Below are positions 29,617-55,828 of a stretch of DNA of 64,000 nt, one piece after another (the first letter of the stretch is position 1; each line of letters starts with the position of its first letter). The translations under genes were made by a program, and so were the position numbers. Source of the DNA: Escherichia coli O157:H7 (GTDB taxonomy: Bacteria > Pseudomonadota > Gammaproteobacteria > Enterobacterales > Enterobacteriaceae); NCBI RefSeq assembly GCF_013167455.1, contig NZ_CP038328.1, one strand, 5' to 3'. Below the pieces are notes generated by a model that was not told where the DNA came from, made no database searches, and worked only from the letters and a program-made list of their open reading frames with translations.

Positions 29617-29772
29617 TTACTCCTCAGGTTCGTAAGCTGTGAAGACAGCGACCTCCGTCTGGCCGGTTCGGATTCGTACCTCGCAGAGGTCTTTCCTCGT
29701 TACCAGTGCCGTCACTATGACGGTTAAACAGATGACGATCAGGGCGACTAACATCGCCTTTTGCTGCTTCAT
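29617..29772 (-). CDS. hok: Hok-family type I toxin (small membrane killer protein)
   Basis: MKQQKAMLVALIVICLTVIVTALVTRKDLCEVRIRTGQTEVAVFTAYEPEE, near-identical to Hok/Gef family members as recalled; RBS AAGGAG; the in-frame upstream extension of the ORF is mok-like. Confidence 0.8.
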   Translation of the reverse strand: MKQQKAMLVALIVICLTVIVTALVTRKDLCEVRIRTGQTEVAVFTAYEPEE

Positions 29773-29951
29773 AGCCTGCTTCTCCTTGCCTTTCGGCACG
29801 TAAGAGGCTAACCTACGTTTGTGAAGCATAGATTGGGCCTCAGATTAATGTTAAGCGTCTTGCAGGACGCGTAATGTTAACTGGGGCTTTTCTCTATCTG
29901 CCTTTTGGTGTTCATGCCTGAGGCAGATAGCCTCAAGCACCCATTATGATT

Positions 29952-36166: not shown

Positions 36167-36416
36167 TACCATCATCATATGACACCCACCACAAAACACA
36201 TTTCGTGTTGACACAAGAAAACGCATTGTGTTTAATAAGCATATCCAAACAACGCCCCACCAGAGAACGGCAGGACAATACCTCGAGTTATCCAGCCACT
36301 GAACAGGGCTAAGTAGCCAGCCTGAGGCATACGAACATGACGGCAGTTGTTGATTGATACAAAGCGCAGTAGATAAAACGTTCCGCCACCCGGCGTTAAG
36401 GGGAAATGAGGTCAAC

Positions 36417-36569
36417 ATGGATACTATCGATCTTGGCAACAACGAATCTCTGGTATGTGGCGTGTTTCCCAATCAGGACGGCACATTCACCGCCATGACG
36501 TATACCAAAAGCAAATCGTTTAAAACCGAAGCTGGCGCACGTCGCTGGCTTGCCAAAAATACCAGCTAA
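36417..36569 (+). CDS. YdaF/YdfA-like small protein
   Basis: MDTIDLGNNESLVCGVFPNQDGTFTAMTYTKSKSFKTEAGARRWLAKNTS (50 aa), resembling Rac YdaF as recalled. Confidence 0.45.
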   Translation: MDTIDLGNNESLVCGVFPNQDGTFTAMTYTKSKSFKTEAGARRWLAKNTS

Positions 36570-37085
36570 ACCATTTATTGGATTAATTCAATATTCTTGC
36601 TGTAGGGGTATAGCCGAGGCCACCAAAGCCCGGAGGTGGTGAAATAAAACCGGGCACAACACGAAGGCGCATTTCCGATATCCATAAAGAGTCGGTCTTG
36701 TCTGTTAAATTTAAATGGTGGGAGTGCGCCTCCGGTTGTAAATAACGACATTGCTGTGTGTAGTCTTGGCGGCATCAGTTCTACTCCGTGGCTGCCCTGC
36801 CGCCCCTTTTTAAAGTGAATTTTGTGATGCGGTGAATGCGGCTGAGCGCACGCGGCACAGTTAAAAGCATCAGTGTTATGGGTGGATTATCCGGCGTTAA
36901 TTGTTAACTGGTTAACGTCACCTGGAGGCACCAGGCACCGCATCAACAAAGTTCACTTCAGTGATGAAAGGTGAGAGAAAATGTTGGATGTAGCTATTGA
37001 AAACCAGAACGGGTGGAATTATAGTGCACCTGCACCTCATAAAACGGGTGCCGGGATTTGCACCCCGATGATCACTAGAGCGCAT

Positions 37086-37109
37086 AACCGCGCCAAAGCG
37101 GTTTTTTTA
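37086..37109 (+). terminator. Intrinsic terminator inside the noncoding region upstream of rha
   Basis: Hairpin aaccgcgccaaagcggtt plus T7. Confidence 0.5.
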
Positions 37110-37274
37110 TGCGTAAAGCGCAGCCACATTCAGATTATGGTGGGGCGTATGGGGCCGTTTTCGGGCGGGCCGGATTCTCTAGTGACCGGTAGTGCAAACC
37201 CTGTACGTCTCACCACCCATGAGATTTGCACCTCCGGTGGTGAGTTTACCAACTTATCACTAGAGGCTGCCATC

Positions 37275-50051: not shown

Positions 50052-50145
50052 ACCGGCGCAGAGGAGACAATGCCGGATTTAAGACGCGGATGCACTGCTG
50101 TGTGTACTGTAGAGTCTGGCGGATGTCGACAGACTCTATTTTTTT
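50052..50145 (+). ncRNA. mcaS: McaS small RNA
   Basis: ACCGGCGCAGAGGAGACAATGCCGG...GTGTGTACTGTAGAGTCTGGCGGATGTCGACAGACTCTATTTTTTT matches McaS as recalled, with terminator; between smrA and abgR. Confidence 0.55.
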
Positions 50146-50153
50146 ATGCAGTT

Positions 50154-54851: not shown

Positions 54852-55178
54852 ATGACTAAAAATACTCGTTTTTCCCCCGAAGTCCGTCAGCGGGCGATTC
54901 GTATGGTTCTGGAAAGTCAGGATGAATATGACTCACAGTGGGCGGCAATTTGTTCCATTGCCCCAAAGATTGGCTGTACGCCGGAGACTCTGCGTGTCTG
55001 GGTTCGCCAGCATGAGCGGGATACCGGGGGCGGTGATGGTGGGCTCACCAGCGCTGAACGTCAGCGTCTGAAAGAGCTGGAACGTGAAAATCGTGAACTG
55101 CGCCGCAGTAACGATATCCTTCGCCAGGCTTCCGCTTATTTTGCGAAGGCGGAGTTCGACCGCCTCTGGAAAAAATGA
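54852..55178 (+). CDS. IS3-family transposase OrfA
   Basis: [41 protein letters not shown]... HTH plus leucine-zipper region. Confidence 0.85.
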
Positions 55179-55828
55179 TGCCACTGCTGGATAAGCTGCG
55201 TGAGCAGTACGGGGTCGGACCGGTATGCAGCGAACTGCATATTGCCCCGTCAACGTATTACCATTGTCAGCAACAGCGACATCATCCGGATAAACGCAGT
55301 GCCCGTGCGCAGCACGACGACTGGCTGAAGAGAGAGATACAGCGCGTATACGATGAAAATCATCAGGTGTACGGTGTGCGTAAAGTCTGGCGTCAGTTGT
55401 TACGGGAAGGAATCAGGGTGGCCAGATGTACAGTGGCACGTCTCATGGCGGTTATGGGACTTGCCGGTGTTCTCCGGGGTAAATGGGCCCGTCGTCCGTC
55501 TGGCACCATCCATCACAGCGATAAAGGCTCTCAGTATGTGTCACTGGCCTATACGGAGCGACTAAAAGAAGCCGGATTACTGGCATCAACAGGGAGTACA
55601 GGCGACTCGTATGACAACGCGATGGCTGAGAGCATCAATGGTCTTTACAAAGCGGAGGTAATACACCGTAAGAGCTGGAAAAACCGTGCAGAAGTGGAAC
55701 TGGCCACACTAACGTGGGTGGACTGGTATAACAATCGACGATTGCTGGGAAGGCTGGGCCATACTCCTCCGGCAGAAGCAGAAAAAGCTTATTATGCTTC
55801 CATCGGAAACGATGATCTGGCAGCCTGA
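55175..55828 (+). CDS. IS3-family transposase OrfB, internally deleted
   Basis: 217 aa; retains HSDKGSQY and [11 protein letters not shown] blocks but lacks the upstream segment that should carry the first catalytic Asp. Confidence 0.7.

What the first reader, a model, noticed from the sequence alone, without database searches (positions are those of the whole stretch)
36570..37274. About 700 bp of structured noncoding DNA upstream of rha, ending in an intrinsic terminator
Between the ydaF-like gene and rha there is no convincing ORF. The region has several GC-rich complementary segments (ccggaggtgg / cctccgg, gttaac-tg-gttaac) and a clean plus-strand terminator at 37086..37109. The long ORF that appears to extend rha upstream runs through this terminator and is probably not translated. 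A structured small RNA or regulatory leader is plausible.
Basis: seen in the sequence. Interest (0 to 1): 0.45.

Follow-up and report, generated by a model that had tools for sequence, protein, structure and literature searches.

The report
Known prophage small-RNA genes upstream of rha
The 700-bp "noncoding" stretch is a row of already-described prophage small-RNA genes (a DicF/KilS-type RNA, IsrK and the C4 antisense RNA) that control the rha regulator and sit ahead of the cell-division killer kilR; it is ordinary biology, although public genome records label part of it as protein.

Summary
The window is a Rac-like prophage, 100% identical to E. coli O157:H7 genomes. Three Rfam families match 36570-37274 on the + strand above their curated thresholds.

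- DicF, 36755-36805. It is the 3' half of the ortholog of the K-12 Rac sRNA KilS.
- IsrK, 37032-37108.
- C4 antisense RNA, 37133-37220.

The two exposed C4 segments (b' 37177-85, a' 37192-98) are exact reverse complements of two site pairs. One pair lies inside IsrK (a1 37057-63, b1 37072-80). The other lies just upstream of rha (a2 37225-31, b2 37257-65), where b2 covers the Shine-Dalgarno sequence. In 30 homologs the three partners co-vary, giving 17 specificity combinations. A P1-like phage aligns over the whole module. This is the P1 immI / P4 / Gifsy-1 "IsrK-C4 immunity" cassette, here inserted between the DicF-type leader and kilR.

The 282-aa "Rha" in RefSeq is probably over-extended, because upstream of ATG 37275 there is no codon periodicity. 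Its N-terminal Pfam "Ash" match coincides with the RNA genes in all 6 loci tested. A short frame starting at ATG 37137 may still be translated.

The parts
36595..36717 (+). Conserved 5' part of the kilR-type leader, upstream of the KilS 5' end. No separate function assigned.
   Evidence: Lies within the block 36595-36958, which is 87% identical overall to K-12 Rac 1418625-1418248; this stretch is nearly identical. Fold of 36590-36812 has z = -2.5.
36718..36811 (+). DicF/KilS-type small RNA. It is the ortholog of the annotated K-12 Rac sRNA KilS. Its 3' half (36755-36805) is a DicF-class stem-loop with a Rho-independent terminator (stem 36768-36804, T run 36807-36811).
   Evidence: Rfam DicF 54.7 bits against a threshold of 48. 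Aligns to K-12 KilS b4833 and to K-12 DicF; the loop UCUACUCCGUG matches DicF, not K-12 KilS. Terminator scan. KilS was confirmed by RIL-seq and northern blot in K-12 (PMC8175672).
36806..36971 (+). Structured leader between the DicF-type RNA and the next gene. A long closing helix (36813-36834 with 36936-36958) encloses small hairpins, including the gttaac hairpin. It is homologous to the dicF-dicB spacer of Qin and to the kilR leader of Rac, and is the likely RNase III substrate.
   Evidence: Fold z = -4.8. The 22-bp helix is 98.7% paired in 38 homologs, with only wobble-type changes. 89% identity to Qin. RNase III makes a 72-nt DicF from the full-length dicBF mRNA (PMC5069750); that the cut falls in this helix is inference. 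The Rfam STnc100 hit here is below threshold (41.8 against 47).
36997..37025 (+). Sigma-70-type promoter of isrK (TTGAAA, 17 nt, TATAGT). It predicts a start at about 37031-37032.
   Evidence: Best promoter match in the region, 10 of 12 positions. Conserved in homologs. Locus L026 has unrelated upstream DNA but its own TTGACG-17-TATATT at the same distance.
37032..37108 (+). IsrK small RNA, equivalent to the a1/b1 element of P1 and seqA of P4. It has two hairpins with a1 (37057-37063) in loop 2, then b1 (37072-37080), then the terminator 37086-37109.
   Evidence: Rfam isrK 68.6 bits against a threshold of 50. Hairpins 99-100% paired. a1:a' and b1:b' are 94.8% paired, with 13 of 16 pairs changed on both sides.
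37133..37220 (+). C4-type antisense RNA. A 17-bp closing stem holds two hairpins. The recognition segments are b' (37177-37185, in the hairpin loop) and a' (37192-37198, in the junction).
   Evidence: Rfam C4 78.1 bits against a threshold of 45. The stems are 98.7-100% paired, and 7 of the 27 C4 pairs show compensatory changes.
37225..37265 (+). Target sites on the rha mRNA: a2 (37225-37231) and b2 (37257-37265). b2 overlaps the rha Shine-Dalgarno AGAGG (37262-37266), which lies 8 nt before ATG 37275.
   Evidence: Exact reverse complements of a' and b'. Cognate duplex energies are stronger than non-cognate ones. b':b2 co-varies in homologs in a register shifted by 2 nt.
37209..37244 (+). Alternative helix. 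The 3' strand of the C4 closing stem (37209-37217) can instead pair with 37236-37244, which would place a2 in a hairpin loop.
   Evidence: Exact 9-nt complement. 98.1% paired in 30 homologs, with 2 pairs compensated in the P1-like and F039 sequences.
37137..37274 (+). orf45-like reading frame with ATGs at 37137 and 37149. It overlaps C4 and is fused in frame to rha with no stop codon. It may be translated on read-through mRNA.
   Evidence: The two AUGs are 12 nt apart, as in Gifsy-1 orf45. The frame is open in 13 of 13 C4 loci. There is no codon periodicity.
36981..37274 (+). N-terminal extension of the RefSeq 282-aa 'Rha family' CDS. It matches Pfam Phage_ASH and is probably an annotation artefact, at least from 36981 to 37136.
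   Evidence: RefSeq annotation. Pfam Ash matches residues 14-108. Ash hits coincide with IsrK/C4 RNA genes in 6 of 6 loci. Codon-position variability is flat at 43/44/42, against 71/48/131 in rha (p = 4e-4).
37275..37829 (+). rha (184 aa), a Rha-domain antirepressor-type regulator and the gene controlled by the cassette.
   Evidence: Pfam Phage_pRha and TIGR02681. PHROG anti-repressor families. Clear codon periodicity. The start codon context ATGGCTACTATCCC is shared with icd of a P1-like phage.

Best explanation
The gap holds two known prophage RNA modules in series on the + strand of the early-left operon of a Rac-like prophage.

Module A (36595-36971) is the long untranslated leader that precedes a cell-division inhibitor gene in Qin (dicB) and Rac (kilR). 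It encodes a DicF/KilS-type Hfq-class small RNA that ends at the terminator 36788-36811. A large helix-closed structure follows.

Module B is a roughly 900-bp cassette (36959-37865) inserted between that leader and kilR. It comprises its own promoter, IsrK, a C4-type antisense RNA and rha. It is a P1 immI-type immunity cassette.

Proposed mechanism (inferred from the homologous systems):
1. Transcripts from the isrK promoter mostly stop at 37109, giving IsrK.
2. Read-through transcripts carry C4, which is cut out of the transcript.
3. C4 pairs through b' and a' with b2 and a2 on the mRNA. This covers the rha ribosome-binding site and blocks Rha synthesis, probably with Rho-dependent polarity on downstream genes.
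4. IsrK carries a second copy of the target sites (a1, b1). It therefore competes for C4, in cis or in trans, and relieves the block.

Shown here: the identity of the elements, their folds, the complementarities and their three-way co-variation, and the homology to the P1-like, P4 and Stx-phage cassettes. Inferred: expression, processing and the direction of the regulatory effects.
For: - Rfam hits exceed the curated thresholds for C4, isrK and DicF.
- b' matches b1 and b2, and a' matches a1 and a2, as exact complements. b2 lies over the Shine-Dalgarno sequence.
- In 30 homologs the local folds are 99.1% paired, with 10 compensated pairs.
- a1:a' plus b1:b' are 94.8% paired, with 13 of 16 pairs changed on both sides. 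The covariation score is 0.676 against 0.176 in shuffles, reached by 0 of 500 shuffles.
- Cognate duplexes are about 6 kcal/mol stronger than non-cognate ones for b'. There are 17 distinct a'/b' combinations.
- A P1-like Punavirus aligns over the whole module, with icd starting where rha starts.
- P4 gives the same isrK and C4 hits at seqA and CI.
- A GenBank Stx2 phage record already annotates isrK, then C4, then a CDS, then kilR.
- The promoter sits at the right distance, and an independent promoter occupies the same place in L026.
- The leader is homologous to K-12 Rac (which includes the annotated KilS) and to Qin dicF-dicB.
- Literature: IsrK given in trans activates translation of the downstream antirepressor, and a stable processed RNA lies downstream of IsrK (PMC4825925). 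The term 'IsrK-C4 immunity system' is in PMC3632133.
Against: - There are no expression data for this locus.
- The prophage is Rac-like and may be cryptic, so the cassette could be idle.
- The published Gifsy-1 model places the regulated ribosome-binding site at orf45 rather than at the downstream gene. The exact step that C4 blocks may therefore differ.
- The leader structure is too conserved to be proven by covariation; only wobble changes are seen.
- The Rfam c4-a1b1 model scores only 18.8 bits here.
Confidence: 0.85

Rival explanations
1. The 282-aa ORF from ATG 36981 is the real gene. On this reading Rha carries an N-terminal 'Ash' protein domain, and 36981-37274 is coding sequence rather than RNA genes.
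For: - RefSeq annotates it this way.
- Pfam Phage_ASH matches residues 14-108 at E = 4.8e-15.
- The frame is open in nearly all of the 77 homologs.
- ATG 36981 has a plausible Shine-Dalgarno sequence (AAAGGTGAGAG). It sits where dicB or kilR start after the same leader.
Against: - A promoter and a Rho-independent terminator lie inside the ORF.
- Variable columns are spread evenly over codon positions (43/44/42), against 71/48/131 in rha (p = 4e-4).
- Stems show compensatory changes that alter codons.
- Every Ash hit examined (6 of 6) sits on IsrK/C4 RNA genes, including the obsolete P4 'cI protein' ORF.
- L026 lacks the upstream ATG, and L022 and L046 carry frame-breaking indels.
- Another annotator starts the homologous CDS after C4.
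Confidence: 0.07
2. The region has a dual use. On read-through mRNA, ribosomes start at the conserved AUG inside C4 (37137 or 37149) and translate the orf45-like frame straight into rha. This would give a 230-aa Rha isoform, or would serve mainly to open the rha start region. The RNA genes and this ORF coexist.
For: - The two AUGs are 12 nt apart, exactly as in Gifsy-1 orf45. There, mutating the AUGs or adding a stop lowers anrP expression (PMC4825925).
- The frame is open from that AUG through C4 and the variable a2-b2 spacer in 13 of 13 loci, including P4 and P1-like phages. A 3-nt indel at a2 preserves the frame.
Against: - There is no codon periodicity, so the peptide is not under detectable selection.
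- The stop-free status of the variable codons has no statistical power; my estimates give P of about 0.2-0.6.
- In this window there is no stop before rha, unlike the coupled arrangement described for Gifsy-1.
Confidence: 0.35
3. Control is P4-type rather than P1-type. On this reading C4 pairing with a1/b1 and a2/b2 on the nascent RNA mainly enforces premature transcription termination, at the IsrK terminator or at a Rho site, rather than directly occluding the rha ribosome-binding site.
For: - P4 seqA and CI give the same Rfam hits.
- b1 ends 6 nt before the terminator stem.
- The authors of PMC4825925 raise this possibility for STnc1160.
Against: - b2 overlaps the Shine-Dalgarno sequence in every homolog, which is the hallmark of translational control.
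- In Gifsy-1, constitutive STnc1160 did not reduce the IsrK effect.
- The two mechanisms are not exclusive. In P1, translational block leads to Rho-dependent termination (my own knowledge, not checked here).
Confidence: 0.25
4. The elements are inert remnants in a decaying cryptic prophage. They are recognisable by homology but no longer expressed or functional.
For: - Rac-type prophages are usually defective.
- The complete 705-bp arrangement occurs in only 62 of 5426 complete E. coli genomes.
Against: - All complementarities are perfect: 9 of 9 and 7 of 7 nt, at both target pairs.
- The promoter, terminators and stems are intact.
- Homologs keep three-way co-variation, which needs ongoing selection.
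Confidence: 0.08

Closest known systems
P1/P7 immI operon (a1 b1 - c4 - a2 b2 - icd - ant)
   Same: The order of elements is the same. C4 fold: Rfam gives 78.1 bits here and 75.9 bits in a P1-like Punavirus. Two recognition segments are complementary to an upstream and a downstream site pair. The downstream b2 lies over the ribosome-binding site. The start-codon context ATGGCTACTATCCC is even shared. The DNA aligns over the whole 262-nt module.
   Different: The controlled gene is a Rha-domain regulator instead of icd-ant. The recognition sequences differ, so the specificity is different. The host element is a Rac-like lambdoid prophage. The a1/b1 element reaches the Rfam isrK threshold here but not in the P1-like phage.
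Gifsy-1 IsrK - orf45 (STnc1160) - anrP locus of Salmonella
   Same: IsrK has its own promoter and terminator. Read-through mRNA carries a stable processed RNA and two AUGs 12 nt apart. An antirepressor-type gene lies downstream. The helix reported between the middle of IsrK and the 3' part of orf45 corresponds to a1b1:b'a' here.
   Different: Here the orf45 frame has no stop and is fused to rha. The downstream context is kilR-ydaE-recE, and no antQ is seen nearby. The published model does not invoke a C4-type block at a2/b2.
P4 immunity (seqA - CI RNA - seqC)
   Same: The same two Rfam families hit in the same order. An RNA made from the leader pairs with sites on both sides of it.
   Different: In P4 the outcome described is premature transcription termination in a satellite phage. 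The spacing and the downstream genes differ.
DicF of the Qin dicBF operon and KilS of K-12 Rac
   Same: Same position: a long untranslated stretch after a DUF1391 gene and before a division-inhibitor gene. 87-89% DNA identity to both. Rfam DicF hit above threshold. The DicF loop sequence CUCCG is retained.
   Different: The element is chimeric: the 5' part is KilS-like and the stem-loop is DicF-like. K-12 KilS itself does not reach the DicF threshold. The IsrK-C4-rha cassette separates it from kilR here.

Membership tests
C4 antisense RNA (Rfam RF01695) | Covariance-model score at or above the curated threshold | tested here: met
   78.1 bits against a threshold of 45, full-length match to model positions 1-87.
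C4 antisense RNA (Rfam RF01695) | Closing stem plus two hairpins, maintained by compensatory change | tested here: met
   The three C4 helices are 98.7-100% paired in 30 homologs. 7 of their 27 pairs are changed on both sides.
C4 antisense RNA (Rfam RF01695) | Two exposed segments (a', b') complementary to a2/b2 on the same transcript, with b2 at the ribosome-binding site of the controlled gene | tested here: met
   Exact 7- and 9-nt complements, with b2 overlapping AGAGG 8 nt before the ATG. Co-variation.
C4 antisense RNA (Rfam RF01695) | Excised from the precursor transcript by RNase P, and represses the antirepressor in vivo | not testable with these tools
   Needs RNA mapping and genetics. 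Known for P1/P7 from my own knowledge of the literature, not checked here.
IsrK (Rfam RF01394) | Covariance-model score at or above threshold; two 5' hairpins plus a Rho-independent terminator | tested here: met
   68.6 bits against a threshold of 50. Terminator. Hairpins 99-100% paired.
IsrK (Rfam RF01394) | Own promoter immediately upstream | tested here: inconclusive
   A consensus match (TTGAAA-17-TATAGT) ends 6 nt before the IsrK 5' end. L026 has a different promoter at the same position. No transcription start data.
IsrK (Rfam RF01394) | Carries sites complementary to the downstream C4-type RNA (a1, b1) | tested here: met
   Exact complements. 94.8% paired across 30 homologs, with 13 of 16 pairs compensated.
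IsrK (Rfam RF01394) | Hfq binding and trans-activation of downstream translation | not testable with these tools
   Shown only for Salmonella Gifsy-1 (PMC4825925).
c4-a1b1 (Rfam RF03163) | Covariance-model score at or above threshold | tested here: not met
   18.8 bits against a threshold of 46.7, at 37019-37071. It models the same two hairpins as isrK, so the element is filed under isrK.
DicF (Rfam RF00039) | Covariance-model score at or above threshold | tested here: met
   54.7 bits against a threshold of 48. Homologous loci score up to 76.7 bits.
DicF (Rfam RF00039) | Lies in the long untranslated stretch of an early operon, between small genes and a division-inhibitor gene | tested here: met
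   The order HTH(-), HTH(+), DUF1391, DicF-like..., kilR mirrors dicC, dicA, ydfA, dicF, dicB.
DicF (Rfam RF00039) | Represses ftsZ by pairing through its 3' part | tested here: inconclusive
   The loop CUCCG, complementary to the ftsZ CGGAG, is retained. Whole-RNA duplex energies against ftsZ were no better than shuffles, even for authentic DicF (z = -0.9 to -1.5).
KilS (K-12 Rac sRNA b4833) | Orthologous position and sequence | tested here: met
   Window 36718-36811 aligns to K-12 1418502-1418405. The 5' 60 nt are nearly identical; the loop differs.
STnc100 (Rfam RF02076) | Covariance-model score at or above threshold | tested here: not met
   41.8 bits against a threshold of 47 here, and 34-42 bits in homologs. 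A true STnc100 (149.9 bits) lies elsewhere in the window and shares only a 22-nt stretch with this leader.
Pfam Phage_ASH (PF10554) protein domain | Profile match | tested here: met
   Residues 14-108 of the 282-aa ORF, E = 4.8e-15.
Pfam Phage_ASH (PF10554) protein domain | The matched stretch evolves as a protein | tested here: not met
   No third-position excess (43/44/42 against 71/48/131, p = 4e-4). All 6 Ash loci tested overlap IsrK and/or C4 RNA genes.

The most novel reading that the evidence does not exclude
The Pfam 'Ash' domain (PF10554) is not a protein domain. It is named on many phage 'ash family' and 'Rha/Ash' proteins, and one study used it as the marker for the P4 epsilon gene. 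On this reading it is the conceptual translation of the IsrK-C4 RNA cassette. A more interesting variant is also open. The cassette may be a true dual-use sequence, in which a frame starting at a conserved AUG inside the C4 RNA is kept open so that ribosomes can run through the antisense RNA gene into whatever regulator lies downstream. Separately, the a' and b' recognition segments assort independently (17 combinations in 30 sequences). That suggests a two-part address code that keeps co-resident prophages from cross-regulating.
Probability: 0.55. Interest if true: 0.45.

Novelty: already known. Interest (0 to 1): 0.2.

Why it matters
For biology the result is confirmatory. It places a textbook antisense-RNA immunity cassette (P1 c4, P4 CI, Gifsy-1 IsrK) and a DicF-type RNA in the early operon of a Rac-like O157:H7 prophage, directly upstream of the toxic genes kilR and recE.

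The practical value is for annotation.
- RefSeq gives no RNA genes here and extends rha by 98 codons through a promoter, a terminator and two RNA genes.
- The same artefact probably underlies a Pfam family and the 'ash family protein' names.

Matches to parts of this region occur in 4661 of 5426 complete E. coli genomes, with a median of 2 and up to 10 places per genome. The many specificity variants could therefore matter for cross-talk among co-resident Stx and other prophages.

Tried and rejected
1. STnc100 as the identity of 36795-36964. The hit is below threshold here and in all homologs. A genuine STnc100 elsewhere in the window shares only 22 nt with it.
2. It is at chance level and absent from the predicted fold.
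3. Testing DicF-ftsZ pairing with whole-length RNAduplex. It did not discriminate even for authentic DicF, so no functional claim is made from it.
4. b':b2 pairing counted in the window's own register across the alignment gave only 47% paired. The homologs pair 2 columns upstream (90.7%). This was resolved with the slide control and with alignment-free duplex energies.
5. Using the absence of stop codons in the variable a1/b1/b'/b2 codons to decide whether the frame is under selection. There are too few independent codons (my estimates, P of about 0.2-0.6).
6. Covariation proof for the leader helix. The sequence is too conserved, and only wobble changes occur.
7. NCBIfam has no family for the 98-aa extension.
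8. I did not retrieve the Gifsy-1 sequence, so the correspondence with orf45 rests on the positions given in the paper.
Full report
**Context.** The window around the finding is 100% identical to many E. coli O157:H7 chromosomes. RefSeq annotates the neighbourhood as a Rac-like prophage. The gene order is ydaV, ydaT and an HTH gene on the minus strand. On the plus strand come an HTH gene, a DUF1391 (ydaF-like) gene at 36418-36569 and a 282-aa "Rha family" CDS at 36981-37829, followed by kilR, ydaE and recE. No RNA gene is annotated in the gap.

**Checking the observation.**
- The only long + strand ORF in the gap is the upstream extension of rha from ATG 36981.
It also finds a second + strand terminator at 36788-36803 plus a T run.
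- The three sub-regions fold more stably than shuffled sequence, with z = -2.5, -4.8 and -4.7.
- The region does not end at the terminator; 165 nt follow it.
- The 7-nt ccggaggtgg/cctccgg match is what chance gives in 700 nt, and the predicted fold does not use it.

**What the elements are.** An Rfam scan gives three + strand matches above the curated thresholds:
- DicF, 36755-36805, 54.7 bits against a threshold of 48.
- IsrK, 37032-37108, 68.6 bits against 50.
- C4 antisense RNA, 37133-37220, 78.1 bits against 45.

A fourth match, STnc100 at 36795-36964, is below threshold (41.8 against 47). A genuine STnc100 lies elsewhere in the window and shares only 22 nt with this stretch. I do not count the STnc100 match.

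**Module B: IsrK, C4 and rha.** The C4 hairpin loop (b', CTCTAGTGA, 37177-85) is the exact reverse complement of two sites. One is 37072-80, inside IsrK (b1). The other is 37257-65 (b2), which overlaps the rha Shine-Dalgarno AGAGG, 8 nt before ATG 37275. The C4 junction segment (a', GTGCAAA, 37192-98) is the exact complement of 37057-63 (a1, in the loop of IsrK hairpin 2) and of 37225-31 (a2). The order a1 b1, C4, a2 b2, gene is the layout I know from the P1/P7 immI operon.

I tested that resemblance directly.
- A P1-like Punavirus (vB_EcoM-673R5) aligns with the window over the whole 262-nt module. It has a C4 hit of 75.9 bits. Its icd gene starts at the position of the rha ATG, with the same first codons.
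- Phage P4 gives the same two Rfam hits, at seqA and at CI RNA.
- A GenBank record of an Stx2 phage already annotates "isrK Hfq binding RNA", "C4 antisense RNA", a CDS and kilR in this order.

**Covariation in module B.** I fetched 80 loci encoding Rha relatives. They gave 26 further distinct versions of the module. With the three phage loci, the alignment has 30 sequences.
- The local folds are 99.1% paired, with 10 pairs changed on both sides.
- The long-range a1:a' and b1:b' pairings are 94.8% paired, with 13 of 16 pairs changed on both sides. The covariation score is 0.676 against 0.176 in shuffles, and none of 500 shuffles reaches it. Slid controls give 0.04-0.13.
- b':b2 co-varies equally well, but in most homologs it sits in a register 2 nt upstream of the window's register.
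- Alignment-free duplex energies confirm that each C4 prefers its own IsrK and its own downstream sites. For b' the means are -13.7 and -15.2 kcal/mol for cognate pairs, against -7.3 and -9.3 for non-cognate pairs.
- There are 17 different a'/b' combinations among the 30 sequences, so a' and b' assort independently.
- A further conserved alternative helix joins the 3' strand of the C4 stem (37209-17) to 37236-44. It would present a2 in a loop.
- The centroid fold of the full read-through RNA shows the long-range IsrK:C4 pairing.

**Promoter.** The best sigma-70 match in the region, TTGAAA-17-TATAGT at 36997-37025, ends 6 nt before the IsrK 5' end. Locus L026 has unrelated DNA upstream of IsrK. 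It nevertheless carries its own TTGACG-17-TATATT at the same distance.

**Literature for module B.**
- In Salmonella Gifsy-1, IsrK has its own promoter. Part of its transcripts read through into orf45 and the antirepressor gene anrP.
- A stable processed RNA (STnc1160) lies downstream of IsrK.
- The middle of IsrK pairs with the 3' part of orf45.
- IsrK supplied in trans switches on anrP translation (PMC4825925).
[quoted passage not shown] They note related systems in P1, P7, N15 and lambdoid prophages (PMC3632133).
- Rfam also holds a family for "a1, b1 targets of C4". It scores only 18.8 bits here and overlaps IsrK.

**Module A: the DicF/KilS leader.** Window 36595-36958 is 87% identical to the stretch just upstream of kilR in K-12 Rac. 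That stretch contains the annotated small RNA KilS. KilS was found by RIL-seq and confirmed by northern blot (PMC8175672). Window 36766-36955 is also 89% identical to the dicF-dicB spacer of K-12 Qin, and gene order is the same in all three prophages.

The window's RNA is chimeric. Its 5' part is KilS-like, and its stem-loop is DicF-like with the loop CUCCG. K-12 KilS itself does not reach the DicF threshold. Homologs show at least three loop classes on an otherwise conserved scaffold.

Downstream, a 22-bp helix (36813-34 with 36936-58) closes a multi-hairpin structure. It is 98.7% paired in 38 homologs, but only wobble changes occur, so the structure is consistent with the data rather than proven. 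The full-length dicBF mRNA is cut by RNase III to give a 72-nt DicF (PMC5069750). A cut 19 nt past the 53-nt end would fall in this helix; that placement is inference.

In K-12 the leader runs straight into kilR. In the window, homology to K-12 stops at 36958 and resumes at 37866. The cassette of isrK promoter, IsrK, C4 and rha is therefore a roughly 900-bp insertion between the leader and kilR.

**The long ORF.** Upstream of 37275 the variable alignment columns fall evenly on codon positions (43/44/42). In rha they fall 71/48/131 (p = 4e-4). A promoter and a terminator lie inside the extension.

Pfam nevertheless matches the extension. Phage_ASH (PF10554) covers residues 14-108, which is exactly the stretch translated through IsrK, C4 and a2-b2. 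I followed this up.
- The obsolete "cI gene product (137 aa)" CDS of the P4 record matches Phage_ASH, and it contains the C4 (CI RNA) hit.
- The real P4 antirepressor, epsilon, belongs to another Pfam family.
- Four further "ash family protein" loci, down to 32% identity, all contain isrK and C4 hits inside the CDS. One of them has two tandem cassettes.

In 6 of 6 loci, then, the Ash match is the translation of the RNA cassette. One study used PF10554 as the marker for P4 epsilon (PMC8628076). Another notes that no function is known for the Ash domain of Rha/Ash proteins (PMC8951638).

A caveat remains. The frame that starts at the conserved AUG inside C4 (37137, with a second AUG at 37149) is open through C4 and beyond in 13 of 13 loci. 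A 3-nt indel at a2 keeps it in frame. It also corresponds to Gifsy-1 orf45, whose translation is needed for anrP expression. In the window this frame runs into rha without a stop. Translation from 37137 on read-through mRNA cannot be excluded, although the peptide itself shows no sign of selection.

**Mechanism proposed.** The identities, folds and complementarities are shown here. The steps below are inferred from the homologous systems.
1. The isrK promoter gives mostly short IsrK.
2. Read-through RNA yields C4.
3. C4 covers a2/b2 and the rha ribosome-binding site. Rha stays off, probably with polarity on kilR-ydaE-recE.
4. IsrK carries a1/b1 and competes for C4, which relieves the block.
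5. Upstream, the DicF/KilS-type RNA ends at its own terminator, and the structured leader follows it.

**Verdict.** However, every element belongs to a described family, and identical cassettes are already annotated elsewhere. The novelty is nil for the biology and modest for annotation: the over-extended rha CDS and the doubtful Ash protein family.

Noticed in passing
window 36981-37304; L088 8168-8584 (-); L089-L092: Pfam Phage_ASH (PF10554) matches coincide with IsrK and/or C4 RNA genes in all 6 loci examined. These include the obsolete 137-aa 'cI protein' CDS of phage P4. The real P4 epsilon protein is in a different Pfam family. The Ash 'domain' and the 'ash family protein' names look like translations of an RNA cassette.
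   Followed up: partly
L089 1627-1968 and 2130-2324: A Salmonella diarizonae element carries two IsrK-C4 cassettes in tandem, next to a BrnT/BrnA toxin-antitoxin pair. Each cassette lies inside a called 'gene'.
   Followed up: no
window 37133-37829 and 12 other C4 loci: An AUG at C4 positions 5-7 is conserved. The frame it opens has no stop through C4 and continues into the downstream gene in 13 of 13 loci, while the other two frames usually have stops. This may be a dual RNA/ORF use.
   Followed up: partly
A2 alignment (window 37029-37290 and homologs): The a' and b' recognition segments assort independently: the same b' occurs with three different a'. There are 17 combinations in 30 sequences, implying recombination between the two halves of the specificity code.
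   Followed up: partly
window 37266-37290; L083, L084, L085: The ribosome-binding region and the first codons (GAGGCTGCCAnnATGGCTACTATCCC) are shared by otherwise different downstream genes: rha, P1-like icd, ST64B sb41 and an Stx2-phage CDS. The cassette boundary therefore lies inside the regulated gene.
   Followed up: no
window 36208-36240 (+): By eye, TTGACA followed by TTTAAT/TAATAA with an inverted repeat ACACAA..TTGTGT between them. It lies just after the terminator of the + strand HTH gene and before ydaF. This looks like the repressor-controlled early-left promoter. The scan's rules did not call it.
   Followed up: no
A3 alignment, columns 50-95 (window 36766-36805): The DicF-type stem-loop comes in at least three loop classes (DicF-like, K-12 KilS-like and a third, UUUAAUUGCUGG) on a conserved scaffold. 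The 60-nt stretches flanking the leader are almost invariant and surround a hypervariable, indel-rich centre.
   Followed up: no
window 27076-27476, 29767-29942, 42069-42247, 46557-46674, 50052-50147, 55133-55249: Other Rfam hits above threshold in the window: AgvB (+) back to back with STnc100 (-) and a tRNA-like hit; sok (-); RalA (-), the antitoxin RNA of the Rac ralR system; FnrS (-); McaS (+); and an ALIL pseudoknot (+, an IS element frameshift signal).
   Followed up: no
L026 2190-2255: One Rha locus has unrelated DNA upstream of IsrK, with its own strong promoter match (TTGACG-17-TATATT) at the same distance. A full-score DicF (76.7 bits) lies about 1.1 kb further upstream.
   Followed up: no
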